DNA from: a virus
DNA: 64,000 nucleotides
Direction: 5' to 3' (one strand)
IMG/VR virus record: IMGVR_UViG_3300008111_000003
The stretch's first letter is position 1. Each line of letters opens with the position of its first letter. Both the position numbers and the translations under genes were made by a program. Shown here in pieces: positions 2,997 to 17,983 of the stretch. The notes under the pieces are model-generated. The model did no database searches. It was not told the origin of the DNA and saw nothing but the letters and a program-made list of their open reading frames with translations.

Positions 2997-3661
2997 TGTT
3001 TAAACTAAAGAAAAGAGCCAGGATTGATTACTGGACTTGTAGTAAATTTGCCGATTGGATTAGAGGTACTTCTAAACCATTTGCTCTTGGATGCGATGAA
3101 TGGAGCAAGTGGCACAAAGAATCTAAAACTAAACATCCAGTTAGATACTGGATAGCAGAAACTTTGTTAAAGAAACTTCAGGACGTAGTTCACTTTCCCT
3201 TTGATGTTTATAATACTATTAGTATATACATTAGAAATCGCTACATTAGTAAAATCCACTATCTTAAAACAGGATTAAAGCCCGGCGAATACTTTGATTT
3301 GGATACTAGAATATTCCACGCCCTATTCAATGAACTAGTTATTTTTGTGGAAAAGGAAGCCACCATAGAATATCTTACTTGGGCATCAGACTTAGTTTAT
3401 GATGAAGATTATGGATTTGATCCATCAGATAGTGATTATGGAAAACCCACTCACCAAGCAACAGCATCATTAAAGATTCTGGAACTATATCACTGGTGGA
3501 AGAATAGAGATTACAGACCAGACCCACACAAAATTTTTACTAAAGAAACTCATGGTGAATTTTACTACAAAACTATAGCAGAGATTGAGGACTCTTATGA
3601 CAAAGAAGATGATGAGATACTGTTAGAACTAGTAAAAATAAGGCGTGAATTATGGACGTAA
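2996..3661 (+). CDS. conserved phage hypothetical protein
   Basis: 221 aa ORF; 3' end overlaps antisense HNH gene. Confidence 0.7.
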   Translation: MFKLKKRARIDYWTCSKFADWIRGTSKPFALGCDEWSKWHKESKTKHPVRYWIAETLLKKLQDVVHFPFDVYNTISIYIRNRYISKIHYLKTGLKPGEYFDLDTRIFHALFNELVIFVEKEATIEYLTWASDLVYDEDYGFDPSDSDYGKPTHQATASLKILELYHWWKNRDYRPDPHKIFTKETHGEFYYKTIAEIEDSYDKEDDEILLELVKIRRELWT

Positions 3662-4372
3662 TATTTTATTACTTTTTTTGAGATTATCTTCTGCCCATAG
3701 TGGTTGAGTATTGGTATAATGAAATAATTTTATTAATTCTTCTTCATTTTTAGCAGACGATATTGGGATTATGTGGTCTATGTGCCAACCCTTTATTCCG
3801 TAGTTATTCCAGTTCATACGGCTATCAAATAATTGTTGTAAGTATTTTTTATATGATTCTATATCAATTCCAAGATATTCAATACTATGATTCTTTTTAC
3901 TTTTAATTGCCATATTAATTCTTCTTCTAATATTATCTATTAACTTAATATTGATTTGTTTTCTTCTATTTTGTCTATATCTTCTTAAATGTTCTAAATT
4001 ATTATTTTTCCATTTTACAAAATTTGAGTGATATTTATTTTTATTATTTATTTTCCATTTTTTATTATATTCTTTTAGTAATTCTTTATTTTTATTTTTC
4101 CATTTTTTATTTTGTTCTTTGCGTCTAGTTTTATTTTTCTCACGATATTTTTTTAATTCATGCTTCTTGAGTTCTCTATAGATTTGATTATTAAATAATA
4201 TAGTTTCTTTATGGTCTTCATAGTATTTTATTCTTTTGTTTTTATTTTGATCGTTATATATTTTACGACAATCTTTACATTGACAACACAATCCAGATTT
4301 TTTTCTTTTGTCTTTAGAAAATCTTAAGATAGATTTTTTAATCTTACATTTACTACATATTTTCTTTTTCAT
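3650..4372 (-). CDS. HNH homing endonuclease (WHIDHIIP...HYTNxQPLWA family)
   Basis: N-terminal CxxC..CxxC, basic helix, GWHIDHIIPIS...HYTNTQPLWAEDNLKKS; start 4372 or 4384. Confidence 0.85.
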   Translation of the reverse strand: MKKKICSKCKIKKSILRFSKDKRKKSGLCCQCKDCRKIYNDQNKNKRIKYYEDHKETILFNNQIYRELKKHELKKYREKNKTRRKEQNKKWKNKNKELLKEYNKKWKINNKNKYHSNFVKWKNNNLEHLRRYRQNRRKQINIKLIDNIRRRINMAIKSKKNHSIEYLGIDIESYKKYLQQLFDSRMNWNNYGIKGWHIDHIIPISSAKNEEELIKLFHYTNTQPLWAEDNLKKSNKILRP

Positions 4373-4416
4373 TTTTATACGCATAAACAAGACAACCCAA
4401 ACAACATCAAGGGTAG

Positions 4417-4445
4417 TTGACAATTGCTTGGGCGTCTGATATAAT
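4417..4445 (+). promoter_or_regulatory. sigma70-type early promoter
   Basis: TTGACA-N17-TATAAT perfect consensus. Confidence 0.8.
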
Positions 4446-4497
4446 TCATTGTAAGTTTTTTGAATGTCTACCCATACTCAAATAGTTATACACCAAA

Positions 4498-4863
4498 ATG
4501 ACTACAAAACCAGATTTAGAATATGATTTATTGAATAATAAGTTTATAAAAAACAAATGCAAAAATAGTCGTATTTATTCGCAAAATCTATATGCCGCTA
4601 TGGCAAATAACCATTTTTTTTATGATGATAAAAGGTGGAGTTGTTCTTGGCGATATTCTGGTGGTATAGTAGCAGTTTTAAGGGAGAATAATGAAACATA
4701 TATTGACTTCTATTGTTCGGGAGTTGCTTCTGATAACAACAATGGTTTCGTATCAGAAGGAACTGTTACCGATGAAATTAAACAAGATTTGTTAACTATA
4801 GGCTGGACTATTAAACCTTATGAACCAAGATTGCCACCAGGAGTTTATAGAAACAAATGGTAG
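4498..4863 (+). CDS. conserved phage hypothetical protein
   Basis: QNLYAAMANN..WSCSWR.SGGIVA..YIDFYCSG..EG.VT motif recalled from large-phage ORFs. Confidence 0.7.
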   Translation: MTTKPDLEYDLLNNKFIKNKCKNSRIYSQNLYAAMANNHFFYDDKRWSCSWRYSGGIVAVLRENNETYIDFYCSGVASDNNNGFVSEGTVTDEIKQDLLTIGWTIKPYEPRLPPGVYRNKW

Positions 4864-5020
4864 ACCTTAAAAAAATAACTAGCAACTACTATGTTTGTGA
4901 ACATGGTCATTTTGAATATCAAGAACAAGATAATCTTTGGCTTTTTATACCTAACGAAAAGCCCCTAAAGAACCTTGACTTGCTCAACATTCTTAATCAG
5001 TTAAATGATCTAAATGAACT

Positions 5021-5641
5021 ATGCTAAATCTAAAAATTCAACCCTATAATAGCGTATGGATAAAGGCAGACTCTCAAGAAGAGTTAGGCTTAACATTTAT
5101 GCGTTTTCAAGAGCATTATGAAAGTGTGAATCCAAAATTCAGAAATCAAATATTTACATTGGGACAACTAAAAAATTGGTATTCTGAGAAGTACGGTGGA
5201 AATACTTATCAAGTTGATTGGACCGGCTTTAATTTTCCTAGTAAAGTATTAATTCCTTTTAAGCAAGGATTGTTTGATCCATTAACTAACGAGGAAAAGA
5301 ATCTATTAGACCTATTAAAATATCGTAATGATAACTTCTACATTATAGGCGCCCAAAATAATAGTGTGCTTAGACACGAACTGGCCCATGCTTTGTATGG
5401 TCATAATAGTGAATACAAGAAACAGATAGATAACTTTATAAACAAGCATAAGAATAAACTAATTAAAGTTTTGAAATTTTTGGAACAAAAGGGCTATACT
5501 AAAGATGTACTGTATGATGAATTACAGGCTTATATTACTGACAACGACGATGCTGATATTATTAATCTAACTGACCCATCTGTTATATCTGGCATAAATA
5601 AGATCTACAAAAAGTTTAATGTTTCAAAGGTGAAAAAATGA
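5021..5641 (+). CDS. HExxH metallopeptidase-like hypothetical protein
   Basis: LRHELAHALY and downstream DELQAY. Confidence 0.55.
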   Translation: MLNLKIQPYNSVWIKADSQEELGLTFMRFQEHYESVNPKFRNQIFTLGQLKNWYSEKYGGNTYQVDWTGFNFPSKVLIPFKQGLFDPLTNEEKNLLDLLKYRNDNFYIIGAQNNSVLRHELAHALYGHNSEYKKQIDNFINKHKNKLIKVLKFLEQKGYTKDVLYDELQAYITDNDDADIINLTDPSVISGINKIYKKFNVSKVKK

Positions 5642-5813
5642 ATACAGATTTGTGTGATGAAGAAAAGAGTTATCATGAATGGGTATCCAATAATTTATCA
5701 TTTGTAAATCAGAACAAACAAGCGATTAGTATAATGAAAAAGATGTATATGCAGGGATTTGCTGCTGGATTTAGTTATCAGAAAAAACTTAGAGCAGAGG
5801 AAGAATTACAAAA

Positions 5814-6080
5814 ATGAGTTGGGATGGAACTTTTAAATACGCCCCTATGAATCCAGATAAGATTAATACTATCATGGAGGCTTATAAACATGAGCAAATA
5901 TACGAATATATTCAAGAACTATATTCTCTAATACATTACCAGCGAAAAATTATAGATGAACAAAGAACTAAAATTGTGGCCCTACAACATAAAGAGGCGT
6001 GGAAAAGATACGATCTTCCAGAAAAAAGTTTTCAAGTTAGTGTTGACAAGCCGCCGAAAGATGGTAATATGAGTTGCTAG
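5814..6080 (+). CDS. hypothetical protein
   Basis: ORF track. Confidence 0.6.
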   Translation: MSWDGTFKYAPMNPDKINTIMEAYKHEQIYEYIQELYSLIHYQRKIIDEQRTKIVALQHKEAWKRYDLPEKSFQVSVDKPPKDGNMSC

Positions 6081-6089
6081 GAGACTACC

Positions 6090-6341
6090 ATGCTAATTAG
6101 TGAAATTAAAAAGTGGGCAAAGACTCATGGCTACGAAGTTTTAAAAGACAAGGGCGATGAAGAAAAGGACGAGCCAGTAACATATTATTGGTCTAAGGTT
6201 GATGATCCTAGTGCTAGTGGAGTTAGTCCAAGTGTTAGCAAACTTGCCAGAGATATTTACAACAATATTACAAATAATGCTTGGGTAGACCATCAAACAG
6301 AATACAAGGAAAAACATATTAATGAACGTAAAACTAATTAG
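6090..6341 (+). CDS. hypothetical protein
   Basis: AGGAG SD, promoter TTGACA-N16-TAATAT at 6043-6070. Confidence 0.65.
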   Translation: MLISEIKKWAKTHGYEVLKDKGDEEKDEPVTYYWSKVDDPSASGVSPSVSKLARDIYNNITNNAWVDHQTEYKEKHINERKTN

Positions 6342-6975
6342 TGTAACACCCGATGCAGAAAAATTAATCTCTTATTGTGCTAGAGTGTCAAATCCAATAG
6401 GACAAAATAATGAGAACTACGCTAAACTATTGAAGTATTGTATAGATCATAAACACTGGAGCATATTTGAAATGGCTACTCTAAATCTTGAGATTAATAC
6501 TACCAGAGGACTAGCAGCACAAATTTTACGTCATCGTAGTTTTAATTTTCAAGAATTTAGCCAGCGATATGCTGATACTACTTTACTTAGTGAAGAAATT
6601 CCGGTATTTGAATTGCGTCGTCAAGATACTAAGAATAGACAAAATAGTATTGACGACATTCAAGAGGAAACAATTTATAAGTGGAATCTACAAATTAGAG
6701 AACATTTTGCTAAAGCAAAGGCTATTTATGATGGAATGATTGCTGATGGTATTGCCAAAGAATGTGCTAGATTTGTATTACCACTATCAACTCCTACTCG
6801 ACTTTTTATGAGTGGCACATTAAGATCATGGATTACATATATAGCACTAAGAGAAAAGAATGGCACTCAAAAAGAACATATCTTGATTGCTAAAGAATGT
6901 AAAAGAATTTTTTGTGGTCAATTTCCAACAATATCAGAAGCACTAGGTGGTTTTGATAAAGATTGGAATATCTAA
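6322..6975 (+). CDS. thyX: flavin-dependent thymidylate synthase
   Basis: HWSIFE and RHRSFNFQEFSQRY ThyX motif, AKECARFVLP. Confidence 0.95.
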   Translation: MNVKLISVTPDAEKLISYCARVSNPIGQNNENYAKLLKYCIDHKHWSIFEMATLNLEINTTRGLAAQILRHRSFNFQEFSQRYADTTLLSEEIPVFELRRQDTKNRQNSIDDIQEETIYKWNLQIREHFAKAKAIYDGMIADGIAKECARFVLPLSTPTRLFMSGTLRSWITYIALREKNGTQKEHILIAKECKRIFCGQFPTISEALGGFDKDWNI

Positions 6976-7119
6976 CTATAAGGATTGAATAATAATGCTA
7001 GTTGATTTTATTTTATGGATGGTTGCTTTTTATCTAGGTTTGAGTTTCGTAACAACTATTTTTGCTGTAACATTTATTCTTAAAACCATGTATGATATTC
7101 ATAGAAAGAAGTTAAAGTA

Positions 7120-7317
7120 ATGAAAACTTTTAATGTAACAGCACAAGGTTATGACTCTTGTTCATCAACTCCTTATCAGATTTTATTGTTGAATGAATTA
7201 GTTAAAGCCAACTCTTCAGAAGAAGCAGAGAAAAAATTCTGCCTAGAATTGCTTGTTGATGATATGATAGTTACTAAAATTCTTTCGTCTGAAGAAATTG
7301 TTCAAGATGCTGCTTGA
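7120..7317 (+). CDS. hypothetical protein ending in ssrA-like -DAA
   Basis: ORF track; C-terminus VQDAA. Confidence 0.6.
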   Translation: MKTFNVTAQGYDSCSSTPYQILLLNELVKANSSEEAEKKFCLELLVDDMIVTKILSSEEIVQDAA

Positions 7318-7341
7318 CTTTGGCCGATACCATTGTATAAT
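7314..7341 (+). promoter_or_regulatory. sigma70-type early promoter
   Basis: TTGACT-N16-TATAAT with TG extension. Confidence 0.7.
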
Positions 7342-7359
7342 GGAAATCAAGGAGACTCT

Positions 7360-8313
7360 ATGAACAGATTTGGCCTTTGTTGTATTAGCCTCAAACTCAA
7401 AGAACAGGGTTTTAGTTTTCAAACTATGACCTACAAGAGATTTTCTAGTTTGCCTAGAAAAGAAGCGTTAGAAATTCTAGGTGATCGTATCCACAATAAT
7501 ATGATTGCTACTAATGAAATTATCAAATATTGTGCAGAAAACAACTGGTGCTATCGTCTTAGTAGCGATCTTATGCCATTGATTAGTTATGACCAAGCAA
7601 ATGTGGACTTAACCGATCTACCAAATCATGACGATATTCAAGATGTTTTTGATACTATTGCGGAAACGATTAAAAATACTGGCGTAAGAATTTCCGCACA
7701 TCCAGATCAGTTTAATGTGTTGGCTACTACAAATGAAAAAGTGGTTGAAAAAACTATTACAGAATTAAATCTAATGAGTAGCCTAATGGATCGTTTTGGT
7801 CTTAGTACTGATCATAATACTCCTATCAATATTCATATTCAAAATAGTAAAGACGGTACTAGAGAAGAAATTAGTGAAAGATTTCTCAAGAACTTCCATC
7901 GTCTTGACGAAAATTGTCAACGTAGGTTAGTAGTAGAGAATGATGATCGCCAAGCGGCTTGGAGTGTTGCTAAACTATTAGATATTTTCTATCCAATTAC
8001 TAAGATTCCTATTACATACGATTCTCATCACTTTAGACTTAATAATCCAGAAAATTTAACAACGGATGATGCTGCACAGGGTTGTGTTGACACTTGGCAA
8101 ACCTTTAAGCCGTTGTTTCATTTTAGTAACGGTAGAGATCACGCCTTAGATAAGGCTCATAGTGATTATGTTTATGATGTACACGAAGAACTATTTAATC
8201 GGGAAGTGGATGTTGATTATGAATATAAATTAAAGGATTTGACTATTCAAAAATTTATAGAATCTTATCAGACTTACGCAAATTATCTTCAGCCCATAGT
8301 GGTTGCAGATTAG
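7360..8313 (+). CDS. uvsE: UV-damage endonuclease
   Basis: GLCC, YRLSS, HPDQF, INIH, VENDD, DSHH, H.S, HSD, EYKLKD motifs; GGAG SD before 7360. Confidence 0.9.
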   Translation: MNRFGLCCISLKLKEQGFSFQTMTYKRFSSLPRKEALEILGDRIHNNMIATNEIIKYCAENNWCYRLSSDLMPLISYDQANVDLTDLPNHDDIQDVFDTIAETIKNTGVRISAHPDQFNVLATTNEKVVEKTITELNLMSSLMDRFGLSTDHNTPINIHIQNSKDGTREEISERFLKNFHRLDENCQRRLVVENDDRQAAWSVAKLLDIFYPITKIPITYDSHHFRLNNPENLTTDDAAQGCVDTWQTFKPLFHFSNGRDHALDKAHSDYVYDVHEELFNREVDVDYEYKLKDLTIQKFIESYQTYANYLQPIVVAD

Positions 8314-8908
8314 AGTAATGGAAACATTTTCTCTGTTGTTCTGGATCAGTTAAATCAAAACTAGAACAAGGAATTATATGATCTATATGCCATCCATTTC
8401 TACCATAATTTTCCCAACTCATGCCATCTTTAAACTGTTGTTCGATGTGCATAGCCAAAAATTCTGCTGTACACCCCAACAATTCAATAGTTCCACCAGA
8501 TTTTATTTTGCCTTGTAAAACATGATTAATTCTTACTCTCAAATTATGTCTAATTTTTGCTTCTTTATTACTAGATAAGTATAACTTTTGTTTTTTATGA
8601 ATATGTTTTTTATTTTTATGATAATATTCTCTTGATTTCTTGTTAAAATATTCTCTATTTTTTTCTCTATTTAATTTATTTTGAGTATCTATATGTTCTT
8701 TATTTTTTATATAGTATATTTTTCTATTTGCTTTTATTTTTTCTGAATTTTTTTTATTATATATTTTTGCCTTTTTATTTAATCTTTTTTTATTTCTTTG
8801 ATGCCATTCTTTTTTCCACTTTTTTTCGCATAATTTACACTGATTGCATCTTCTTTTATTAAATTCATTATCTTCTTTTTCTAATAGACACATATGACAT
8901 TTTTTCAT
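8255..8908 (-). CDS. HNH homing endonuclease
   Basis: GWHIDHIIPCSSF...HYSNLQPLWAEDNLRKS; GGAGGAG SD before ATG 8908. Confidence 0.88.
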   Translation of the reverse strand: MKKCHMCLLEKEDNEFNKRRCNQCKLCEKKWKKEWHQRNKKRLNKKAKIYNKKNSEKIKANRKIYYIKNKEHIDTQNKLNREKNREYFNKKSREYYHKNKKHIHKKQKLYLSSNKEAKIRHNLRVRINHVLQGKIKSGGTIELLGCTAEFLAMHIEQQFKDGMSWENYGRNGWHIDHIIPCSSFDLTDPEQQRKCFHYSNLQPLWAEDNLRKSDKIL

Positions 8909-9249
8909 CTTGACTCCTCCTATTCCTATGCTATCATATAGTACACCAAATTTCATTTATGTAGGATTTGAACAATGAGCGGAAATTTAATATTGATAAG
9001 TGGTGCGATATATCTTTGGGTGGCTTTTGACCAAATATATAATCATAAAAATATCGGTATGTTTATAACCTATCTTGGTTACTCATTTGCAAATATAGGC
9101 TTATATATGCTCGCATCAAAATAAGGAATAAATAATGGAAGAAACTCCCAAAAGACGAGAACCAAAAAAAATAAGGATGCCTCCCCTAGTTGACCGATAC
9201 AAGGAATATGATAGAATGTACGGTGACGCTCAGGAGTCTACCAACACTA

Positions 9250-9708
9250 ATGAAAATCATACAGAAAACGATTCGCAAAGCATACCAGAACTGGAGTCCT
9301 TGTAAGGAAATTCGTTGCTGGCATTACTGTGGGGCTTTTGATGGGACAAAACTAATTTGTTTCACCCAAAACAACCCGATTAAAACTCATGCTGGTGCTT
9401 ATAGGATAGGTGAAAACTTTAATTTGCCAAAATATAAGGAGCATCCTTTTTATCACGCAGAAAGTCATCTGATTTCTAAACTCTTGGATAAGTATAATAC
9501 TATTGATCCGGGTTGGGATATTGTGGTGATGAGAATTAATAGAAAAGGATTGATTCTTGGTAGTAAGCCTTGTGAGAATTGTAATAAATTGCTTAGTGCT
9601 GTTGGATTAACTAATATCTATTACAGTAACGATGACGGTAATTTTACTGATAGTTTTAATAATACGATTCAAGTGAGAGACTTGACGATGCCGATGAGCA
9701 TGGTATAA
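9250..9708 (+). CDS. cytidine/dCMP deaminase-fold protein
   Basis: HAE...SKPCENC zinc motif; promoter TTGACC-N16-TAGAAT 9190-9217 and AGGAG SD place start at 9250. Confidence 0.75.
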   Translation: MKIIQKTIRKAYQNWSPCKEIRCWHYCGAFDGTKLICFTQNNPIKTHAGAYRIGENFNLPKYKEHPFYHAESHLISKLLDKYNTIDPGWDIVVMRINRKGLILGSKPCENCNKLLSAVGLTNIYYSNDDGNFTDSFNNTIQVRDLTMPMSMV

Positions 9709-9885
9709 TTCTAGAACAAGAGAGGTTGAAAATGCTATTGTCTTTAAACGATAATGAAGCCTATACATTGCAATGGGCATTAAGTATTGCCAAATTAGAA
9801 GCGGATAAAAGTTTTCCTAGATCGGGTTTGTTAGCCAGCATAGAAGATATTATACGGAAAGTAAAGGAACAAACAAGAGAGTAAT

Positions 9886-10104
9886 ATGAATTGTATTTAT
9901 TGTAGGACTGATATTCCTTCTGAAAGAGCAGAGTTTTTGATTGAAAATAATAGACGAGCCACTTGTATTAATTGTTCTACTGAGCAACGTGCTGTGGGCT
10001 TTATGGACTGGAATCATAAAACTGCCCCACAACTTGTTATGGTGCCAAGTAATGCTACTGAGACTATTAGGATTCTACACAGAGCAAATCGTCGTGCTAG
10101 ATAA
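9886..10104 (+). CDS. DksA/TraR-type C4 zinc-finger protein
   Basis: CIYC..DIP.ER.E...CINC. Confidence 0.7.
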   Translation: MNCIYCRTDIPSERAEFLIENNRRATCINCSTEQRAVGFMDWNHKTAPQLVMVPSNATETIRILHRANRRAR

Positions 10105-10630
10105 GTTTATTAGATTTTTTTAAATTGTCTTTTGCCCATAATGGTCTAAGATTAGAATAATGAAAACACTCTTTTTGCTGCTTAGTATCCGATAAATCAA
10201 AACTATCACATGGTTTTATATGGTCAATATGCCACTCACCATGATTATTCCAACTCATACCTTTTAAAAACTGTTTTTCTATGTATGACTTAAAAAAGAT
10301 TATATCGCATCCTAGTAATTTTTTAGCGGATTCAATTTTTATATTACCTTTTATTGCATGACGCAATCTACGTCTTAGAGTATGTTTGATTTTAAATTCT
10401 ATATCTGAATGGTATTTTTCTCTAAAAATTTTAGCCTGTTGTTCTCTATGATTATAATTATATTCTTTATGTTGTTGATCTAATCTATCTTTATTTACTA
10501 AATAATATTTCTGAGAATATATTTTTCTACAATCTTTGCATTTATGATTTCTACCAAATTTACCGTCTTTTTTTATATGAAAACAATCTAGTAATTTATT
10601 TTTACCACAAGTATTACATTTTTTCTTCAT
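10097..10630 (-). CDS. HNH homing endonuclease
   Basis: EWHIDHIKPCDSF...HYSNLRPLWAKDNLKKS. Confidence 0.88.
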   Translation of the reverse strand: MKKKCNTCGKNKLLDCFHIKKDGKFGRNHKCKDCRKIYSQKYYLVNKDRLDQQHKEYNYNHREQQAKIFREKYHSDIEFKIKHTLRRRLRHAIKGNIKIESAKKLLGCDIIFFKSYIEKQFLKGMSWNNHGEWHIDHIKPCDSFDLSDTKQQKECFHYSNLRPLWAKDNLKKSNKLI

Positions 10631-10722
10631 TTATCACCCATTGACTACGAGTGCGTTCAATGTATGATACACCAACACAGAGCAAATACGAGACTTTTCC
10701 TATTAAAAAAGGAGCAAGATAA

Positions 10723-10917: not shown

Positions 10918-11147
10918 TGGATTTGGAAATTGAGAGTTTGCTATTCAAACAGGTTGAAAAACCCAAGCACCATCTAATGACTAAAATTATTAATGTTTGG
11001 GAAAATCGTTATCGTATTAATGTTTATATTGAGATAGAAGAAGATAATCTAATTAAGAAGCGTATCCATAGTAGTTATTTTTGTCACTATAATCCGGGTA
11101 AACTAGTTATAAAGGATGGGCCAAATGGATCAGGAATTACAGAATAA
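10917..11147 (+). CDS. hypothetical protein
   Basis: coupled start. Confidence 0.6.
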   Translation: MDLEIESLLFKQVEKPKHHLMTKIINVWENRYRINVYIEIEEDNLIKKRIHSSYFCHYNPGKLVIKDGPNGSGITE

Positions 11148-11583
11148 ACTTTACACAGAATACCCTCAATTCTTTTCTAACAAAGATAAAACACCCAGGG
11201 AAAGCCCTATGTGTTTTGGTATAGAGACTGGAAACGGATGGTATGAAATACTAGATAGTTTGTGCTGGAAGATTAAACAGCATGAAGATAATAAACGATG
11301 GCAAAAAGAGTGGGAAAATAAAAAAAATCAAGAGATTAAAGATTCTATGGGATTTAGTATACAAGGAACAACGGAAGAGTATTTTTCTGTTAAATTTGAT
11401 CAGGTAAAAGAGAAGTATGGTGGTCTTAGGGTCTATTTTAGTGGTGGAGATAAGTACGTTGAGGGATTAGTGGGTATGGCAGAATCAATATCCTATTCCA
11501 TATGCGAAATTTGTGGAAATAAAGGTGAAGCAAATAAAGGCGGATGGATAAGTGTGCGTTGTGAGGCTCATAGAAATTCTTAA
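11116..11583 (+). CDS. conserved phage protein (GW...QVKEKxGGLR.Y...CExCG)
   Basis: motif widespread in large phages. Confidence 0.75.
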   Translation: MGQMDQELQNKLYTEYPQFFSNKDKTPRESPMCFGIETGNGWYEILDSLCWKIKQHEDNKRWQKEWENKKNQEIKDSMGFSIQGTTEEYFSVKFDQVKEKYGGLRVYFSGGDKYVEGLVGMAESISYSICEICGNKGEANKGGWISVRCEAHRNS

Positions 11584-11659
11584 AGAATCCCTCTTGACAG
11601 TGCCGATTACTCTGATATACTGAGAGAGTTGACAGCATCAATCACAGGAGAATCAGATA

Positions 11660-12064
11660 ATGAAGGGTCAGAAAAGTTGTCCAGATTGCGGAACCACAAC
11701 GGGACCGCGTGCTTATGCTTGCAAGAAGTGTAATCATATTTTTATCTTCAAGGCCAAAAGCAAAGAGGCTAAGAATACCAAGATCATCCATAATTTTAAT
11801 TGGAGAGACTTGGTTAAGGGAGATAAGATCAAGGTTACTGGAGGCCCATACTATGTTCACAGGGGAGACTTTCTTCGTATGGGTTATCGTGGCAAGTTTG
11901 TTGTTGAGAGTGTAGATAAGAACGGTATTCTTGCTTGGGGTTTGGATAAGAGTTGTGGATTTTGTCATATCTGGATGAATGGCGAAATGCAAAACAAAGA
12001 AACCGGAGTTTGGAAAATTCCGCACAAAATTCTGAAACTTAAACTTAGAGAACAAACAGTATGA
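11660..12064 (+). CDS. zinc-ribbon early protein
   Basis: CPDC...CKKC; promoter TTGACA-N16-TATACT at 11594-11621; AGGAG SD. Confidence 0.75.
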   Translation: MKGQKSCPDCGTTTGPRAYACKKCNHIFIFKAKSKEAKNTKIIHNFNWRDLVKGDKIKVTGGPYYVHRGDFLRMGYRGKFVVESVDKNGILAWGLDKSCGFCHIWMNGEMQNKETGVWKIPHKILKLKLREQTV

Positions 12065-12342
12065 GTCTTACCAAGTCTCAAAAAGATCAGTTGCTTCTTC
12101 TTAGAGAACATATGGAAGATATTAGTAAGAGTGTATTCCGAATAGGAGAAATTCTTAAAGAACATTTTCCAAAAGAATACGAATCTGCCTATCAACACTG
12201 GATTCCACAAATAGTGACTGGTCTTTATGACCATGATAAGTGGCTACCTAGAGGACAGTTGACAATGAAGGATACGCTTGATAGAATAGTAGACAAAGCG
12301 AACGATAGTGCTGCAAAAGGTGTAACTAAGTATATCAACTAA
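12061..12342 (+). CDS. hypothetical protein
   Basis: ATGA overlap. Confidence 0.65.
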   Translation: MSLTKSQKDQLLLLREHMEDISKSVFRIGEILKEHFPKEYESAYQHWIPQIVTGLYDHDKWLPRGQLTMKDTLDRIVDKANDSAAKGVTKYIN

Positions 12343-12354
12343 TTGGAGATTAAA

Positions 12355-12735
12355 ATGGACGATAATGTTTATTCGATCATTGATTTGGATGGTTACGCTA
12401 CAGAAATGCGTCATGGTGCTGCTTCTAGTTTGGCCGAAAACTATGATGAGAATCTAGACGATTATATTAGTCTTCAGCAGATTAAGAATATTGTGAAAAC
12501 TGAGTGCTTGGGATATGATGACCAAGATAGGCCACTTCTAAATGAAGAAACAAATATTAGTGTATATGAAAGTATCGTGACTTGGATTCATAATGTTGGG
12601 TTGGCTAAACTAGCAGCAAAAGACTTGATCGAATGCTGTTGGGATGATAAACTTAATGAAATGATTTTCTGGCAAAAGGAACCCCACAATGAACAACTTG
12701 ACTGCGGAGGAAAAAATCCAAAAACTCAAGGATAA
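12355..12735 (+). CDS. hypothetical acidic protein
   Basis: GGAG SD before ATG 12355. Confidence 0.65.
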   Translation: MDDNVYSIIDLDGYATEMRHGAASSLAENYDENLDDYISLQQIKNIVKTECLGYDDQDRPLLNEETNISVYESIVTWIHNVGLAKLAAKDLIECCWDDKLNEMIFWQKEPHNEQLDCGGKNPKTQG

Positions 12736-12839
12736 GATTGCGGACGCTAGAGATTATATTAGTTCAGACTTTTGCAAAACTTGTTCAGTAATGTATAAGA
12801 ACATTGAGAATTGGACAAAAGAACTAAGAGAATTAGAGA

Positions 12840-13397
12840 ATGAACGTACTGGATAGTTTAAAAAATCTTAGTATTAAGGATATTGGTCATTATTGCCATA
12901 GCAAAAGTATTCCTGCTAGTGTGGCTATGATTAATATTGGTGGTGATTTTAATCTTAGCACAATGGTGCGTAATGCAAATTTCTTTGGCTTTAGAAGTGT
13001 GCATTATGTTGGTAAAAAGAAGTGGGATAAAAGAGGAAGCGTAGGCACTCACCACTATACTCCTATGTATCATCACAAAGATGAAGAATCTTTTTTGCTA
13101 CAACTAAGTGGTCGAAGCATTATTGCTATTGAAAATAATATTCCAGAGTATTCTGATAAAACAGTGAATCTTTTTGAATATAACTTTGAGGATAATAAGC
13201 AACCCATATTTATATTTGGAGAAGAAAACAAAGGATTATCAAATATTATTCTAGACAGAGCAAATATTATTCTAACTATTCCTAATTATGGAAGTGTACG
13301 ATCACTAAATGTTGGAACAACTAGTGGGATAGTTATGGGTGTATACAGAAATTTTGTTGAGAGCAAAACTAAAGAGTTGACAGGTGTTGGTCGATAG
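12840..13397 (+). CDS. SpoU/TrmH-family RNA 2'-O-methyltransferase
   Basis: N.STMVR.A, FGEENKGL, IP.YG.VRSLNV SPOUT motifs. Confidence 0.88.
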   Translation: MNVLDSLKNLSIKDIGHYCHSKSIPASVAMINIGGDFNLSTMVRNANFFGFRSVHYVGKKKWDKRGSVGTHHYTPMYHHKDEESFLLQLSGRSIIAIENNIPEYSDKTVNLFEYNFEDNKQPIFIFGEENKGLSNIILDRANIILTIPNYGSVRSLNVGTTSGIVMGVYRNFVESKTKELTGVGR

Positions 13398-13418
13398 TGT
13401 AGAATAGAGATACAATGC

Positions 13419-13491
13419 GAGGCGTTCGTCTAATGGTAAAAGACGCCAGTCTTATTAACTGGACATGGGAGTTCGATTCTCTCACGCCTTA
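13419..13491 (+). tRNA. tRNA-Ile(UAU), CCA not encoded
   Basis: acceptor GAGGCGT/ACGCCTT, D stem GTCT/AGAC, anticodon stem CCAGT/ACTGG with loop CTTATTA, T arm GGGAG-TTCGATT-CTCTC; promoter TTGACA-N17-TAGAAT at 13377-13405. Confidence 0.8.
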
Positions 13492-13492
13492 C

Positions 13493-14005
13493 TTATTTTT
13501 GAACAATGAAATATTTTCTAGAACTATTCCCTTTATTTTTTGCTTTGTATGTTGGTAATTGACAATCACAATTAGGACAAACAATACGGAGATTGTCTAA
13601 TTTATTATTGTTCGATTTACCATCAATATGATCCACAATAAGGGTGATGGGTTTTCCATTCCAATCATCTCCTGACTGTCCGCAAATCATACAATTATTT
13701 CCATATTTACGCATGAAATATTTTCTGATAGTTACATTATGATAATGACCATTTCCAAAACTACCCTTTGCCTCAATCAAACTATCTGATTTTTCTCTTT
13801 TATGAGTTATTCTACAGGTTTGTGAGCAATACTTTCTTGGAGCATTAGTATTAAATTCAGTTTTTTTCTTACAATGTAAGCATTTAAAATATCTAGTTTG
13901 TTTTTGCCTTTTAGGTTTTAACTGATTATTATAAGACACCCCACATGATATACAACAAAATTTAGGATTACTAGTTTCTTTTGAACAATTAGCACAGTTA
14001 TTCAT
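13493..14005 (-). CDS. HNH endonuclease (second family)
   Basis: CMIC..LIVDHIDG.SNNN.LDNLRIVCPNC; GGAG SD before ATG 14005. Confidence 0.85.
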   Translation of the reverse strand: MNNCANCSKETSNPKFCCISCGVSYNNQLKPKRQKQTRYFKCLHCKKKTEFNTNAPRKYCSQTCRITHKREKSDSLIEAKGSFGNGHYHNVTIRKYFMRKYGNNCMICGQSGDDWNGKPITLIVDHIDGKSNNNKLDNLRIVCPNCDCQLPTYKAKNKGNSSRKYFIVQK

Positions 14006-14072
14006 AGCCGAACTCCACTTGTTATGACTTGATAAGTTATTATACACCATTTCGATTCAATAAGGAAATTTT

Positions 14073-14297
14073 ATGACTCACAGAAATCCTAATATTCCAT
14101 TTTATACAATTTTAGTCGGTTTGTTTTGTTTGTCTTTTGGCTATAATATTCATCTCTACAACAAAATTCAGGTTCTAGAATCATCTTTAACCCTTACTCG
14201 TTGTGGAACTAGTGAATATGAACTAATGAAGATTAAACAAGAAATAAAGCGTCTAGAATTTAATCAAGATAACACTAAAAGTGTATTAATTAAGTAA
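14073..14297 (+). CDS. single-TM hypothetical protein
   Basis: hydrophobic N-terminus. Confidence 0.55.
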   Translation: MTHRNPNIPFYTILVGLFCLSFGYNIHLYNKIQVLESSLTLTRCGTSEYELMKIKQEIKRLEFNQDNTKSVLIK

Positions 14298-14300
14298 TTG

Positions 14301-14654
14301 GGGGGCGAAATGTATCGATTGGATAACAGAGATTATATTAGCAAGTAGTGGTTGGTGGACGGGCCACTTTAAAAGTCTACCAAATGCTTTAACTGGCACA
14401 AATCAGTTAGCCCTTGCTGCCTAATTAAAAACGGGCAGTAACAGACTGCGATACCGAATGAGGGTAGGAATCAAAAGTCTGCTGTTAAATCCCTCTGCAC
14501 TTACAATATCCAACGGGTTGTAGGTTAAGAGAAGTTGGTAAGATGGAAAGAATCTTGTTTGTTCTATAATTCCATTTAACTCATGAACAAAATAAACTTG
14601 TAGAATATGTAATTAAAATTATCGCAACACTCGGCTTCGCCGCCGACGCCTCCA
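14301..14654 (+). ncRNA. ssrA: tmRNA, tag (A)GTNQLALAA
   Basis: 5' GGGGGCG pairs with 3' CGCCTCC-A with G3:U70 Ala determinant; resume codon GGC at 14395 after TAACT; tag ends LALAA-TAA (14424). Confidence 0.9.
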
Positions 14655-14681
14655 CTTTATAATGTGATTATGAAATGAATA

Positions 14682-15026
14682 ATGCCTAGAAAAATTTGTA
14701 TATACTGTGGTAAAAGAAAAAATCGAAAGAGTTTTCCCAAACACAGTTTATACAAAGATAAACTAGATACACGATGTAAAAAATGTGTTAAGGAACATTC
14801 AAAAGTTAGAGGCAAGTTACATAAAAAAGCACCACCAAAACCAGAAGTTTGTGAATGTTGTGGAAAAGTTCCACTAAAATGGTGTTTGGATCACGACCAT
14901 AGTGATGATAGTTTTAGGGGCTGGATTTGTGATAGATGCAATACTGGCATAGGAAAATTAGGAGATAATCTTCAAGGCATTGTGAATGCTATGAATTATT
15001 TTCTCTCAAGACCCAATAGCCAATAG
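14682..15026 (+). CDS. recombination endonuclease VII-domain protein
   Basis: CECC...LDHDH..RGWIC..CN.GIG.LGDN. Confidence 0.85.
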   Translation: MPRKICIYCGKRKNRKSFPKHSLYKDKLDTRCKKCVKEHSKVRGKLHKKAPPKPEVCECCGKVPLKWCLDHDHSDDSFRGWICDRCNTGIGKLGDNLQGIVNAMNYFLSRPNSQ

Positions 15027-15088
15027 CCGATACTTGACAAGGTGGTTGTCGCATGATATGATGGTGGAACACACAGGAGAAACTGGAA

Positions 15089-16222
15089 ATGAATAAGCAT
15101 TACGAAACCCTTTATTCCAGAGACAGTTTGGGTAATATTCGCATTTGGAAGATGGAGCAAAATGGTTCTAAGTATCGTACAATCGCCGGTCTACAAAATG
15201 GCGAACAGGTTACTAGCGAATGGACTGTTGCAGAAGGTAAGAATCAGGGAAAGAAAAACGAAACATCCTCTGTTGAACAGGCCACTAAAGAAATTGAGGC
15301 TAAATATAAAAAGCAAAAAAAGACGGGGTATTTTGACGATATTAATAGCGTGGACGATATGAGTTATATCGAACCTATGTTGGCTAAGTTGTATAAGGAC
15401 TATAGTAATAAGATTGATTTTTCTGAAGGAGAATATATTCTTCAGTGCAAGTTTAATGGCATGAGATGTGTGGCTACCAAGAGTGGTCTATTTACCAGAA
15501 AAGGTGAAAAGTATTTGTCTTGCCCCCATATTGAAAAATCTTTGGCTTCTTTCTTTAAAATGTATCCCGATGCGGTTTTGGACGGTGAGTTGTTTAATAA
15601 TGATCTTCGTCAACAACTTAATGAAATTAGCAAGTTAATTCGCCGCACCGTTAATATTTCTCAGGATGATTTGGATCGTAGCGAAAAACTTGTTAGATAT
15701 TATGTTTATGATGGATACGATTTTGGAATTAGCAAAGACTGTTGCTATAAGGAACGTAAGAAGTGGATTGATTCTAACATAGTAAACTCGTATAAATATG
15801 TTATGCCTGTCAAAGACTTCAGCATTAATTCTGAATCAGATCTAGACAAGCACTATTCTAGTTTTATTGATGATGGTCATGAGGGTGTCATGCTCAGATA
15901 TTCTAATATGGGCTATGAACATAAAAGAAGTAAGAATCTTTTGAAGGTTAAGCCGGAAGATTCAGAGGAAGCGATTATCGTCGATATTAAAGAAGGAACT
16001 GGTAATTGGAGTGGTACAGGAAAGACTATTACCTTGGATTGGAACGGAAAGATTTTTGATGCTAGTTTTAAGGGGTCTTATGAAGAAGCGGCCCAATTCC
16101 TTAAAGAAAGAAAAAAGTGGATCGGTCAAAATGTGGAGTTTCTCTATAATGGATTAACTGGTAAAGGTACTCCTAACTTTGCTAGGGTTGATGGAAATAA
16201 TTGTCTGAAATTAGATAGATAA
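15089..16222 (+). CDS. ATP-dependent DNA ligase
   Basis: KFNG.R motif I, LDGEL, YVYD, EGVMLR, LLKVK; promoter TTGACA-N17-TATGAT at 15034. Confidence 0.9.
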   Translation: MNKHYETLYSRDSLGNIRIWKMEQNGSKYRTIAGLQNGEQVTSEWTVAEGKNQGKKNETSSVEQATKEIEAKYKKQKKTGYFDDINSVDDMSYIEPMLAKLYKDYSNKIDFSEGEYILQCKFNGMRCVATKSGLFTRKGEKYLSCPHIEKSLASFFKMYPDAVLDGELFNNDLRQQLNEISKLIRRTVNISQDDLDRSEKLVRYYVYDGYDFGISKDCCYKERKKWIDSNIVNSYKYVMPVKDFSINSESDLDKHYSSFIDDGHEGVMLRYSNMGYEHKRSKNLLKVKPEDSEEAIIVDIKEGTGNWSGTGKTITLDWNGKIFDASFKGSYEEAAQFLKERKKWIGQNVEFLYNGLTGKGTPNFARVDGNNCLKLDR

Positions 16223-16315
16223 TATCTTATTACCTTTACTAATATTGTCTGTAGCCCATAAAGGCTGAAGATTGGAATAATGGAAACGCTGTTTTTGTTG
16301 TACTGGATCAGTCAA
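16211..16315 (-). pseudogene. C-terminal remnant of HNH homing endonuclease
   Basis: minus strand reads LTDPVQQKQRFHYSNLQPLWATDNISKGNKILSI*, matching the 8255-8908 C-terminus. Confidence 0.85.
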
Positions 16316-16316
16316 A

Positions 16317-16979
16317 ATGCTACAACTATATTGTTCTAGATCAGCATATATTGATAAGTTTACCATATACGGAGAAAGACACTCTGGAACTAACTTTCTA
16401 GAACAGTGTATAAAAGAAAGATTTGGATTAGAATTAACCTACTTTTTTGGATTCAAGCATTTTTTTGGATGGGCTAAACCAGAAACTATAAGTTATCATC
16501 CTATTAGTTTACACACTCTTTTTATTGGTATTGTGCGTGATCCATATCAATGGATAGTGGCTATGTTAAATGCTCCCCACCATGTTCATCCTCATAGAAC
16601 AGTAAATATACCCGCTTTTTTAACAAGCGAATGGTATTCTACTGATTATCATGATAAAGAAATTATGGAAGATAGAAGTTTTGTGAGTAAACAAAGATAT
16701 AAAAATATTTTTGATATGAGAACTACAAAATGTAGATATTTATCAGAAATTATGCCAGTAATTGCTCCAAACTATGTTTTATTTTCATACGATACTTTTC
16801 TTAAAAACTACGATAACTATCTAAACATACTACAAAATAGATTCTATCTTAAAAAAAGGGGAGAATCAACAAGACCAATTATCAAAAATAGTTATTCAGT
16901 AAGTCCTGAGATTAAAACAATCATTGATAATAATCTTGATTGGGAATTAGAAGAAAGTTTAGGTTTCAGCAAACGCTAA
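16317..16979 (+). CDS. sulfotransferase-like protein
   Basis: IYGERHSGTNFL PAPS-binding loop, KH, IVRDPYQW. Confidence 0.7.
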   Translation: MLQLYCSRSAYIDKFTIYGERHSGTNFLEQCIKERFGLELTYFFGFKHFFGWAKPETISYHPISLHTLFIGIVRDPYQWIVAMLNAPHHVHPHRTVNIPAFLTSEWYSTDYHDKEIMEDRSFVSKQRYKNIFDMRTTKCRYLSEIMPVIAPNYVLFSYDTFLKNYDNYLNILQNRFYLKKRGESTRPIIKNSYSVSPEIKTIIDNNLDWELEESLGFSKR

Positions 16980-17044
16980 AGAAACCCTCTTGACGAACCG
17001 ATACTATCTGCTATTATGCTGTTATAACCACTTTGGAGAAAACG

Positions 17045-17749
17045 ATGCAAGTGACCACTGTTAAAACTGCTAAAGAGCCTATTGTTATAAATACCTCTAA
17101 GGCCGATGAGTTTTTTAAAACCTTTCCAAAAGATAAGGTTGTAGCATATAAAGACTATTGGGAGAGTATTAGACCTCAAAATAACAGCGATATTTTTCGT
17201 CGGTATCTTTTTGCTTTCATGAGTGTCCATACTACATGGGAAAGTAATGTTAAGGGTTATAATGCTGTTAAAAACTTCGATGAATGGATTGATGACAAAA
17301 TATCACTTCTTGAAAAAATCAAAAACAGTGGAGTCGGTCTTCATAATAATCGTACAGAATATATTTGGGACTTTAAGGACAAGTTTTGGGCCAGTCCTAA
17401 AGATTATATTATAACCACTAAGAAATATCATGTTAAGAAGCGTGATAGCATCATAAATAAAATTCGCGGATTAGGAGCAGCGAAAATCTCATTCAGTTGC
17501 GAGATGCAAAATCCTAATGAATGTAGAGTAGTGTGTTTGGACGTTCATTTGCTTAGGCTTTATGGTTGCGAGAATCTAAAATATAACAAAAGCCCAAAGG
17601 GCATGGATATGTACAAAAATATCGAAAGACATTGGAGTATTAACTGCGGTCGAACAAATGTGCCTTGTTATATCATGAGGTCTTTGTATTGGAATACTTT
17701 ACAGAATCAAGAGAATTGTCGCTATTGGAGTCATTGTTTAGAATCATAA
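17045..17749 (+). CDS. HhH-family DNA glycosylase (8-oxoG glycosylase-like)
   Basis: IRGLGAAK.SF HhH and CLDVHLLR; promoter at 16990-17017. Confidence 0.75.
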   Translation: MQVTTVKTAKEPIVINTSKADEFFKTFPKDKVVAYKDYWESIRPQNNSDIFRRYLFAFMSVHTTWESNVKGYNAVKNFDEWIDDKISLLEKIKNSGVGLHNNRTEYIWDFKDKFWASPKDYIITTKKYHVKKRDSIINKIRGLGAAKISFSCEMQNPNECRVVCLDVHLLRLYGCENLKYNKSPKGMDMYKNIERHWSINCGRTNVPCYIMRSLYWNTLQNQENCRYWSHCLES

Positions 17750-17859
17750 AGTATCCAACCTCCTTTGGTTTTTTTAATCTTTTTCTTAACTAATTTGTAT
17801 ATAATTTCTTCTTTTAGTATTTTTCTTATAGCATATATTCCAGATACTTTTTGTCTCAT
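17731..17859 (-). pseudogene. internally deleted GIY-YIG homing endonuclease relic (42 aa)
   Basis: MRQKVSGIYAIRK...KLVKKKIKKTKGGWILYDSKQ*; AAGGA SD; GGTGTA motif upstream. Confidence 0.65.
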
Positions 17860-17983
17860 ATTGTAATTATCCTTTCTTCTAGAAGAAGATACGCCAACTC
17901 TACACCAAAACTATTATTTTCTTGACAGCCCGACAACCATACGATATTATAAACATAAGAGGGGTATTTCTGTATGAGCCAAA

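What the first reader, a model, noticed from the sequence alone, without database searches (positions are those of the whole stretch)
3650..17950. Antisense homing-endonuclease cassettes with their own late promoter and a back-to-back early promoter
Seen: the only credible minus-strand genes in 64 kb are endonucleases (3650, 8255, 10097, 13493, relics 16211 and 17731). All five that keep a 5' end have TGGTGTA on the minus strand just upstream (TACACC at 4489, 8942, 10668, 14043, 17901). Each ends tail-to-tail overlapping the host gene's last codons (12 bp, 59 bp in uvsE, 8 bp, 12 bp, 19 bp) or abuts the tRNA 3' end. Three also have a plus-strand sigma70 promoter at their 5' end (4417, 10641, 17922). 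Inference: this is a shared insertion strategy in which early sense transcription silences the nuclease, the late promoter fires it during replication/recombination, and the cassette supplies the host stop codon and restarts the downstream operon.
Basis: partly seen in the sequence, partly recalled or inferred. Interest (0 to 1): 0.72.

Follow-up and report, generated by a model that had tools for sequence, protein, structure and literature searches.

The report
Inverted homing-endonuclease cassettes carrying two promoters
In the early-gene arm of this uncultured lake phage, selfish nuclease genes sit backwards between host genes and bring a phage-type promoter for themselves plus a host-type promoter that restarts the next gene; this is a tidy variation on what is known from phage T4, and no RNA data test it yet.

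Summary
A greedy ORF call gives 118 genes in the 64 kb. Only six lie on the minus strand: four intact homing endonucleases (three zinc-finger/HNH, one HNH) and two relics. The five that keep a 5' end have TGGTGTA 33-41 nt (116 nt for one) before the start codon. Four have a sigma-70-type promoter on the other strand there.

IMG/VR relatives, including one complete 157.7-kb genome, carry or lack these cassettes at the same sites. The GGTGTA box travels with nucleases of four families, including sense-oriented ones. It also precedes non-nuclease genes. It sits 15-60 nt before a same-strand start at 48% of sites in the window and 28% in the relative, against 3-5% for permuted hexamers. It is therefore a lineage-specific promoter. 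It is probably read by a small phage sigma, like phiEco32's single-element tAATGTAtA.

The outward sigma-70 promoter belongs to the insert. The claim that the cassette supplies the host stop codon fails at three sites and holds only for uvdE. Antisense silencing and late timing remain untested.

One extra: HEG-A has a conserved, covarying two-hairpin leader with a terminator-like stem and complementary loops.

Verdict: partly supported; new variant of a known kind.

The parts
3650..4372 (-). HEG-A, zinc-finger + HNH-type homing endonuclease (240 aa). Its last two codons and its stop are antisense to the last codons of host gene 2996-3661.
   Evidence: PHROG 1035 E 9.7e-15; alignment A3 with invariant CxxC and WHIDH motifs; junction read.
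4373..4488 (-). Long 5' leader of HEG-A: hairpin H1 (about 4458-4482), an embedded opposite-strand sigma-70 promoter, a long terminator-like hairpin H2 (4390-4437) with a U-rich tail, then the start codon.
   Evidence: 15 copies match covariance model R1. 16 of 20 pairs show compensatory changes; 87.8% of cells paired vs 71.7% in shuffles, 0/500. H2 is more stable on the HEG-sense strand in 14/14 copies. The H1 and H2 loops are complementary over 6-9 nt in 14/14 copies, with 11 different words.
4489..4495 (-). TGGTGTA box of HEG-A (candidate phage-sigma promoter).
   Evidence: invariant in all aligned leaders.
4417..4445 (+). Sigma-70-type promoter TTGACA-17-TATAAT (12/12) inside the HEG-A leader, pointing at host gene 4498-4863. 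It is convergent with the TGGTGTA box.
   Evidence: It is absent from the cassette-less allele L003, where the two host genes overlap.
8255..8908 (-). HEG-B, same family (217 aa). Its last 59 nt are also the last 18 codons plus stop of uvdE (7333-8313).
   Evidence: PHROG 1035 E 7.6e-16; uvdE C-terminal comparison.
8910..8948 (.). Overlapping divergent promoter pair of cassette B: plus-strand TTGACT-16-TATCAT (8910-8937) and minus-strand TGGTGTA (8942-8948).
10097..10630 (-). HEG-C, same family (177 aa). Its stop codon lies inside the last codons of host gene 9886-10104.
   Evidence: PHROG 1035 E 1.2e-24; junction.
10641..10674 (.). Overlapping divergent promoter pair of cassette C: plus-strand TTGACT-16-TATGAT (10641-10668) and minus-strand TGGTGTA (10668-10674).
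13493..14005 (-). HEG-D, HNH endonuclease (170 aa). Its stop codon abuts the 3' end of tRNA-Ile (13419-13492).
   Evidence: PHROG 10822 E 2.6e-21; Pfam HNH_3 at 21.3 bits, below cut-off. L002 has the tRNA followed directly by the next gene, with no nuclease.
14043..14049 (-). TGGTGTA box of HEG-D. Only a weak opposite-strand sigma-70 match lies here.
16211..16366 (-). Relic E: 16222-16316 is the 3' end of a HEG-A/B/C-type gene, 95% identical to the intact copy in L010. Its 5' part has been replaced by host gene 16317-16979.
17731..17859 (-). Relic F: a 42-codon in-frame remnant of a GIY-YIG endonuclease. A 746-bp deletion lies between two GIY-coding words, relative to L002:18655-19539.
17901..17950 (.). 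Back-to-back promoter pair of cassette F: minus-strand TGGTGTA (17901-17907) and plus-strand TTGACA-17-TATTAT (17922-17950), followed by the ribosome-binding site of the next host gene.
   Evidence: Cassette-less L001, L005 and L006 have Ogg and the next gene 2-3 nt apart with no promoter.

Best explanation
These are free-standing homing-endonuclease cassettes of three families: zinc-finger/HNH, HNH and GIY-YIG. They have inserted, in inverted orientation, exactly at gene junctions of the host-RNA-polymerase-driven early arm of an uncultured freshwater phage.

Each cassette is a self-contained transcription module. On its own strand it carries a GGTGTA(T) box, a single-element promoter of this phage lineage. 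That box is most likely read by a small phage-encoded sigma factor at middle or late times, and it drives the nuclease. On the host-gene strand it carries a strong sigma-70 promoter, often with a ribosome-binding site. This restores expression of the downstream host gene, whose translational coupling to the upstream gene the insertion has broken.

The two promoters overlap or face each other, so occupancy by one kind of polymerase holoenzyme should exclude the other. In one subclade (HEG-A) a structured leader with a terminator-like hairpin probably damps nuclease output further.

Shown: anatomy, conservation, cassette boundaries, RNA covariation. Inferred: promoter activity, timing, silencing.
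For: 1. Nuclease identity and mobility.
- PHROG, Pfam and motif evidence supports the nuclease assignments.
- The cassettes are mosaic at identical sites in L001-L010. Decayed copies occur in the window and in L009.
- Flanking host genes are unusually similar between cassette-bearing genomes. Ogg is 93% identical between the window and L002, against 62-68% in the others. The ligase is 96-97% identical among the window, L009 and L010. This fits co-conversion.

2. The box is a promoter-like signal of the phage, not of one nuclease family.
- Exact or one-mismatch GGTGTA lies 26-48 nt or about 115-130 nt before the start of zinc-finger/HNH, two HNH and GIY-YIG genes in relatives. This includes the sense-oriented L009:12689.
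- 10 of 21 sites in the window and 12 of 43 in complete relative G001 lie 15-60 nt before a same-strand start. The medians for 60 permuted hexamers are 2.7% and 4.7%.
- The box also precedes a trypsin-like protease gene, the tail-fibre module and genes in the terminase/virion block.
- Of the same nuclease family in IMG/VR, only copies from this lineage have the box: 20 of 90.

3. Class of promoter.
- Strong sigma-70 matches crowd the early arm and are scarce in the virion block.
- G001 encodes a 206-aa protein whose only sigma-type Pfam match is Sigma70_r2, at the head of that block.
- phiEco32's small sigma reads a single element, tAATGTAtA, with starts 6-8 bp downstream (PMC8948821).

4. The outward promoter is cassette-borne.
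- It is present in antisense cassettes at sites A, B, C and F.
- It is absent from cassette-less alleles at A and F and from sense cassettes.
- Four of five 5' ends carry a match of 10/12 or better. My estimate of chance is about 6% per site, taken from the counts.

5. Orientation. Boxed copies are 11 antisense to 4 sense. Box-less copies in other phages are 7 to 41 (Fisher p = 4e-5).
Against: - No transcript data exist.
- 'Late' is not shown. The box also lies before early-arm plus-strand genes (12319, 18336) and 160 nt before ribonucleotide reductase, so it may be a middle promoter.
- Orientation is not a rule. The window itself has a sense copy at 52519, and G001's early arm has two sense and three antisense copies.
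- The orientation counts are per locus, not per independent insertion. By my count of about 15 distinct sites, 11 antisense is not significant on its own (binomial p = 0.12).
- At site C, the cassette-less allele in L003 has an 11/12 sigma-70 match inside the upstream gene. Cassette D has only a weak outward promoter.
- The sigma-like gene was seen in a relative, not in the window.
Confidence: 0.62

Rival explanations
1. The cassettes and both promoters are real, but the inverted orientation has no regulatory meaning. It only reflects which way a few founder insertions happened to land and then spread by homing. The sigma-70 promoters are retained simply because the downstream genes need them.
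For: Sense-oriented copies with the same box exist in the window (52519) and in G001/L009. Many antisense copies share a site, and so an ancestor. The binomial test on roughly independent sites gives p = 0.12.
Against: The same nuclease family is mostly sense-oriented in other phage lineages (41 sense to 7 antisense), against 4 to 11 here. Antisense cassettes of unrelated nuclease families (HNH, GIY-YIG, zinc-finger/HNH), and a methyltransferase cassette in L001, share the layout.
Confidence: 0.25
2. TACACC(A) is a plus-strand feature, part of the start region or 5' UTR of the host-type promoters that drive the downstream genes. On this reading it is not a minus-strand promoter for the nuclease.
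For: At cassettes B and C the motif lies 0-4 nt after the plus-strand -10 hexamer, near the predicted plus-strand start. At A it lies just before the start codon of gene 4498.
Against: None of the other strong plus-strand sigma-70 promoters has the motif. In sense-oriented nucleases, and before the protease, tail-fibre-module and virion-block genes, the motif is in the gene's own orientation, 26-48 nt before the start, with no sigma-70 promoter nearby. At F it lies upstream of the plus-strand -35 hexamer, outside that transcript.
Confidence: 0.07
3. GGTGTA is an operator or a homing-site copy bound by the nucleases themselves, giving autorepression like I-TevI, rather than a promoter.
For: T4 intron endonucleases bind operators that overlap their own late promoters (PMC2988022).
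Against: Four unrelated nuclease families share the same box. It also precedes non-nuclease genes such as the protease, virion-block genes and a methyltransferase.
Confidence: 0.04

Closest known systems
Free-standing homing endonucleases (seg and mob genes) of phage T4 and their transcriptional integration (Edgell, Gibb and Belfort 2010, PMC2988022)
   Same: Intergenic insertion between conserved genes. Nuclease-specific promoters are of the middle or late class, never early. Promoters for the downstream host gene are carried within the element, which favours its retention. Terminators occur near the 5' end of mobE and segF. Distribution among relatives is sporadic.
   Different: In T4 all but one (segD) share the orientation of their neighbours, and segD has no promoter of its own. 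Here the early-arm copies are inverted. Each has its own box, and the outward promoter is a host sigma-70 type placed at the nuclease's 5' end, overlapping or facing the nuclease promoter.
RBS-sequestering hairpins with a nested late promoter (I-TevI, I-TevII, I-TevIII, segB, Aeh1 mobE)
   Same: A structured leader in front of a nuclease gene, combined with a phage-specific promoter, with the apparent aim of restricting expression to later times.
   Different: The HEG-A-type leader does not pair with the ribosome-binding site, and the promoter is not nested in the hairpin. Instead it has a 5' hairpin, then a long hairpin with a U tract (terminator-like). The two loops are mutually complementary.
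Single-element middle/late promoters of phiEco32 read by the small sigma gp36 (tAATGTAtA; PMC8948821)
   Same: One short conserved element with a TGTAtA core and no -35 element. A small phage sigma gene is present in a complete relative. The distance to start codons is compatible with starts 6-8 bp downstream.
   Different: The upstream half differs (GG in place of AA). The sigma-like protein has no detectable relative in cultured phages. No start sites or in vitro data exist.
Portable leader cassettes on nuclease genes noted earlier by this scan in other uncultured T4-like phages (for example e1-5777871)
   Same: A conserved ~90-130 nt structured module heads many nuclease genes and is bracketed by facing promoters.
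   Different: No sequence match to those notes was found. Here the fold is favoured on the nuclease-sense strand (14/14). The facing promoter is a host sigma-70 type that also serves the next host gene.

Membership tests
Free-standing homing endonuclease genes | Encodes a nuclease of a homing-endonuclease class (HNH/His-Me or GIY-YIG) | tested here: met
   PHROG 1035, 10822 and 1271 hits. Invariant WHIDH...N...DN motif. Pfam GIY-YIG E 4e-7, over cut-off, for the intact L002 copy of relic F. Pfam HNH hits to HEG-D are below cut-off.
Free-standing homing endonuclease genes | Present or absent at the same site among close relatives, between conserved genes | tested here: met
   Sites A, B, C, D and F have both cassette-bearing and cassette-less alleles. 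Site E has an intact copy and two decayed copies.
Free-standing homing endonuclease genes | Cuts the cassette-less allele and spreads by repair, with co-conversion of flanks | tested here: inconclusive
   Flanking Ogg and ligase genes are far more similar among cassette-bearing genomes (93-97%) than among the others. This fits co-conversion. Cleavage itself cannot be tested here.
HNH / His-Me finger nucleases | Significant match to a curated HNH model or a solved HNH structure | tested here: inconclusive
   HEG-A/B/C have no Pfam hit at E 0.01. The sense copy at 52464 hits PF01844 at 19.4 bits, below the 21.4 cut-off. The PDB profile search gives only Hpy99I at E 0.11. The motif and PHROG evidence are positive.
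T4-type late-promoter-in-hairpin translational masks | A hairpin sequesters the ribosome-binding site on read-through transcripts; the late promoter sits inside it | tested here: not met
   Folds of seven leaders leave the Shine-Dalgarno and start codon unpaired or only weakly paired. The box lies upstream of both hairpins.
Single-element phage-sigma promoters (phiEco32 type) | One conserved element at a fixed short distance before genes, with no -35 element | tested here: met
   Positional enrichment of 48% and 28% against 3-5% for permuted words. No conserved upstream element appears in the aligned leaders.
Single-element phage-sigma promoters (phiEco32 type) | A phage-encoded sigma that reads the element; transcripts start 6-8 bp downstream | not testable with these tools
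   A protein whose only sigma-type Pfam match is Sigma70_r2 is present in relative G001 (24.9 bits; 22.8 bits, cut-off 24). No RNA data could be obtained.
Intrinsic (rho-independent) terminator / leader attenuator | A stable G+C-based stem followed directly by a U tract, upstream of the ORF | tested here: met
   H2 has 17-22 pairs and -17 to -26 kcal/mol on the sense strand, followed by a T-rich run in all 14 leaders. The window's own copy has an interrupted T run and was not listed by the simple scan. Termination itself is untested.

The most novel reading that the evidence does not exclude
In this phage lineage, homing endonucleases have evolved a portable two-way promoter module. A phage-sigma box and a host sigma-70 promoter overlap, so that the switch of polymerase holoenzyme during infection flips the cassette from 'serve the host gene' to 'make nuclease'.

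The host-gene promoter makes the phage dependent on the cassette even after the nuclease decays. Relic F keeps both promoters around a 42-codon stub.

A subclade adds an attenuator whose two hairpin loops kiss. This would be a temporal control by orientation and promoter occlusion, not by the T4-style RNA mask.
Probability: 0.35. Interest if true: 0.7.

Novelty: new variant of a known kind. Interest (0 to 1): 0.52.

Why it matters
The question is how selfish nuclease genes settle into tightly packed, temporally programmed phage genomes without harming them. That has been worked out almost only in T4.

This lineage shows a different solution. The insertion is inverted, at the exact stop/start junction of coupled genes. 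The insert pays for the damage with a host-type promoter and a ribosome-binding site, and it keeps a phage-type promoter for itself.

If the timing model holds, it gives three things:
- a natural pair of overlapping promoters read by different holoenzymes;
- an 'addiction by promoter' route to the retention of decayed elements;
- a compact, covarying leader RNA with complementary hairpin loops to study.

It also provides independent support for GGTGTA(T) as the non-early promoter of an uncultured freshwater phage group. That helps annotate its expression program.

Tried and rejected
- Megablast of 15.5 kb against cultured phage records found no match.
- No whole genome is held for the window.
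- Rfam at E <= 1 over 3.5-18.2 kb found only tRNA-Ile. The leader belongs to no known RNA family.
- A PDB profile search with the nuclease alignment gave no significant hit.
- tblastn of the sigma-like protein against cultured phages found nothing.
- I considered reading the leader hairpins on the opposite strand, as earlier notes did for other phages. This is rejected here: the antisense folds are weaker in 14/14 (H2) and 13/14 (H1) copies, and the stems hold many G-U pairs on the sense strand.
- I considered whether the plus-strand version of H2 terminates early read-through. It is much weaker (-8 to -17 kcal/mol) and is left open.
- The loop-loop pairing could not be written as one column structure, because two subgroups differ by one column in register. 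It was therefore counted per sequence.


Full report
**What the window is.** The window has about 33% G+C and almost all genes lie on the plus strand. It has no near relative among cultured phages. Its rIIA-like protein and other genes mark it as a large lytic phage. IMG/VR holds relatives (L001-L010). One of them, G001, is a complete 157,712-bp genome, which I fetched whole. Earlier notes of this scan call the source an uncultured lake phage.

**Check of the observation.** A greedy ORF call over the 64 kb gives 118 genes.
- 3650-4372, 8255-8908 and 10097-10630 belong to one family. It hits PHROG 1035 with E down to 1e-24. It has an N-terminal CxxC...CxxC motif, a lysine-rich middle and an invariant WHIDHI...N...DN His-Me motif.
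- 13493-14005 is an HNH gene.
- 16222-16316 is the last 95 nt of a gene of the first family, 95% identical to the intact copy in L010.
- 17731-17859 is a GIY-YIG gene that lost 746 bp in frame, between two GIY-coding words. The intact copy is in L002.

TGGTGTA stands 33, 37, 37 and 41 nt before four of the start codons and 116 nt before the fifth. The tail-to-tail overlaps and the tRNA abutment are as stated. The plus-strand sigma-70-type promoters at 4417, 10641 and 17922 are real matches, and a fourth lies at 8910.

Two corrections are needed. A sense-oriented copy of the same nuclease family lies at 52519-53057, and an HNH gene at 61464-62057. The promoter pair at cassette A is convergent, not back-to-back.

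**What the GGTGTA box is.** In relatives the box, exact or with one mismatch at the first base, precedes nucleases of four families: zinc-finger/HNH, two kinds of HNH, and GIY-YIG. The distances are the same as in the window. This includes L009:12689, which lies in the sense orientation.

The box is not specific to nucleases. In the window it lies 26-48 nt before the plus-strand genes at 12355, 18373, 28583 (a trypsin-like protease), 40345 and 41354 (the head of the tail-fibre module) and 50979. In G001 it precedes three genes in the block that starts with the terminase.

Position is far from random. 10 of 21 sites in the window and 12 of 43 in G001 lie 15-60 nt before a same-strand start. The medians for the 60 permutations of the hexamer are 2.7% and 4.7%.

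Among 90 copies of the nuclease family taken from IMG/VR at large, only the 20 from this phage lineage have the box. The nucleases therefore use the resident phage's signal.

Strong sigma-70 matches crowd the early arm: 0.4-24 kb in the window and 8.9-66 kb in G001. They are scarce in the virion block. G001 encodes a 206-aa protein whose only sigma-type Pfam match is Sigma70_r2, right at the head of that block. phiEco32 offers a tested precedent. Its small sigma reads a single element, tAATGTAtA, and transcripts start 6-8 bp downstream (PMC8948821). Here the element is tGGTGTAt(a).

I conclude that the box is a non-early, phage-sigma promoter. 'Late' as opposed to 'middle' is not established, because copies also lie before early-arm genes and 160 nt before ribonucleotide reductase.

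**Cassette boundaries from cassette-less relatives.**
- Site F. In L001, L005 and L006 the Ogg stop and the next start codon are 2-3 nt apart, with no promoter. In the window and L002 that gap is filled by the inverted GIY-YIG gene (or its stub), the box, TTGACA-17-TATTAT and a ribosome-binding site. In L009 the same gap holds a sense-oriented nuclease with the box but no sigma-70 promoter, and its stop overlaps the next start.
- Site A. In L003 the two host genes overlap (ATGA). In the window the cassette sits between them and carries the 12/12 promoter.
- Site B. In L004 uvdE and a conserved 49-codon membrane ORF overlap (GTGA). The window and five relatives carry the cassette. L009 has a different, sense-oriented HNH gene there and no sigma-70 promoter.
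- Site C. L009 and L003 lack the cassette. The window and L006 have it, with a 10/12 promoter. L003 does have an 11/12 match inside the upstream gene, so this site is less clean.
- Site D. L002 has tRNA-Ile followed within 3 nt by the next gene. The window has the HNH cassette between them, with a ribosome-binding site but only a weak outward promoter.

**The stop-codon claim.** The C-termini of w2996 (..IKIR..LW[ST]), w9886 (..RANRR[AS]R) and Ogg (..RYWS..[LF]E[SDE]) are the same with or without a cassette. At these sites it is the nuclease ORF that reads 8-19 nt into the host gene's end and finds its stop there. For example, HEG-A ends ..KIL-RP*, where RP* is antisense to the host's LWT codons.

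Only uvdE differs. Cassette-bearing alleles end in about 15 residues that are antisense to the nuclease's conserved C-terminus. L004 and L009 end 9-10 residues earlier, with unrelated sequence.

At the ligase site no naive allele was found. L009 still keeps about 28-30 nt of the nuclease's 3' end.

**Mobility.** Host genes next to a shared cassette are much more alike than the rest of the genomes. Ogg is 93% identical between the window and L002, against 62-68% elsewhere. The ligase is 96-97% identical among the window, L009 and L010. This is what co-conversion during homing would give.

**Orientation.** Boxed copies are flanked by opposite-strand genes on both sides in 11 loci and by same-strand genes in 4. 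Box-less copies from other phages show 7 and 41 (Fisher p = 4e-5). The loci are not independent events. By distinct site the excess is not significant on its own (p = 0.12), and sense copies occur even in the early arm of G001. The inverted layout is therefore a strong tendency of this lineage, not a rule.

**An additional feature: the long leader.** HEG-A and 14 other copies share a 115-130 nt leader. It runs as follows:
- the box;
- a short hairpin, H1;
- an A+T-rich stretch that holds the opposite-strand -10 hexamer;
- a long hairpin, H2, whose arm holds the opposite-strand -35 hexamer;
- a U-rich run;
- then the Shine-Dalgarno sequence and the start codon.

On the model-fitted alignment, 16 of 20 pairs show changes on both sides. 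87.8% of cells pair, against 71.7% in shuffles (0 of 500 reach this) and at most 54% when partners are slid. That alignment leans towards the structure, but G-U pairs and folding energies favour the nuclease-sense strand in 14 of 14 copies for H2 and 13 of 14 for H1.

The loops of H1 and H2 are perfectly complementary over 6-9 nt in all 14 copies, using 11 different words. The cross-pair control averages 4.4 nt.

I read this as a leader attenuator with an internal loop-loop contact. That reading is inference.

**Comparison with the known.** The T4 review states the following (PMC2988022):
- nuclease-specific promoters are middle or late;
- mobE and segF carry 5' terminators;
- all T4 nucleases share their neighbours' orientation except segD, which has no promoter.

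The present case keeps the logic but changes the means. The orientation is inverted, each copy has its own box, and a host-type outward promoter overlaps or faces that box. I found no description of this layout in the literature I searched; my search was limited.

**Verdict.** The finding is a new variant of a known kind. The timing and silencing claims still need RNA data.

Noticed in passing
window 52519-53057 (+) and 61464-62057 (+): A sense-oriented copy of the zinc-finger/HNH nuclease family starts right after the upstream gene's stop. It has only a GTGTAT variant about 85 nt upstream. A separate HNH gene (Pfam HNH E 2e-13) lies at 61464-62057. So nucleases are not confined to the minus strand.
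   Followed up: partly
window 14301-14660; L001:14264-14616; L004:9687-10040; L002 about 15100-15450: ARAGORN calls a tmRNA with a ..LALAA tag in L001 and L004, in a stretch homologous (73-77% identical) to window 14301-14660. L002 encodes ..GKTTLALAA** there. ARAGORN and Rfam call nothing in the window's copy.
   Followed up: no
window 8975-9124 (+): A 49-codon hydrophobic ORF (MSGNLILISGAIYLW...) is conserved directly after uvdE, or after its cassette, in all eight relatives. It overlaps the uvdE stop in the cassette-less allele L004.
   Followed up: partly
L001:9021-9731 (-): An inverted SAM-dependent methyltransferase gene (Pfam Methyltransf_11, E 1e-8) sits among plus-strand genes with a GGGTGTA box about 125 nt upstream. 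The inverted-cassette layout is therefore not limited to nucleases.
   Followed up: no
window 3646-3675 and 4489-4500: The start codon and Shine-Dalgarno sequence that served gene 4498 before the insertion survive at the end of gene 2996 and now open a 9-codon ORF. The present start at 4498 has no recognisable Shine-Dalgarno sequence.
   Followed up: no
window 17887-17907 and L002:19570-19590: Cassette F has two tandem near-copies of the box (TGGYGTA-GAG-TTGGYGTA). The exact TGGTGTA is the upstream copy in the window and the downstream copy in L002.
   Followed up: no
G001 68442-69062 (L014:8442-9062): A 206-aa protein whose only sigma-type Pfam match is Sigma70_r2 heads the terminase/virion block of the complete relative. 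It has no tblastn match in cultured phages.
   Followed up: partly
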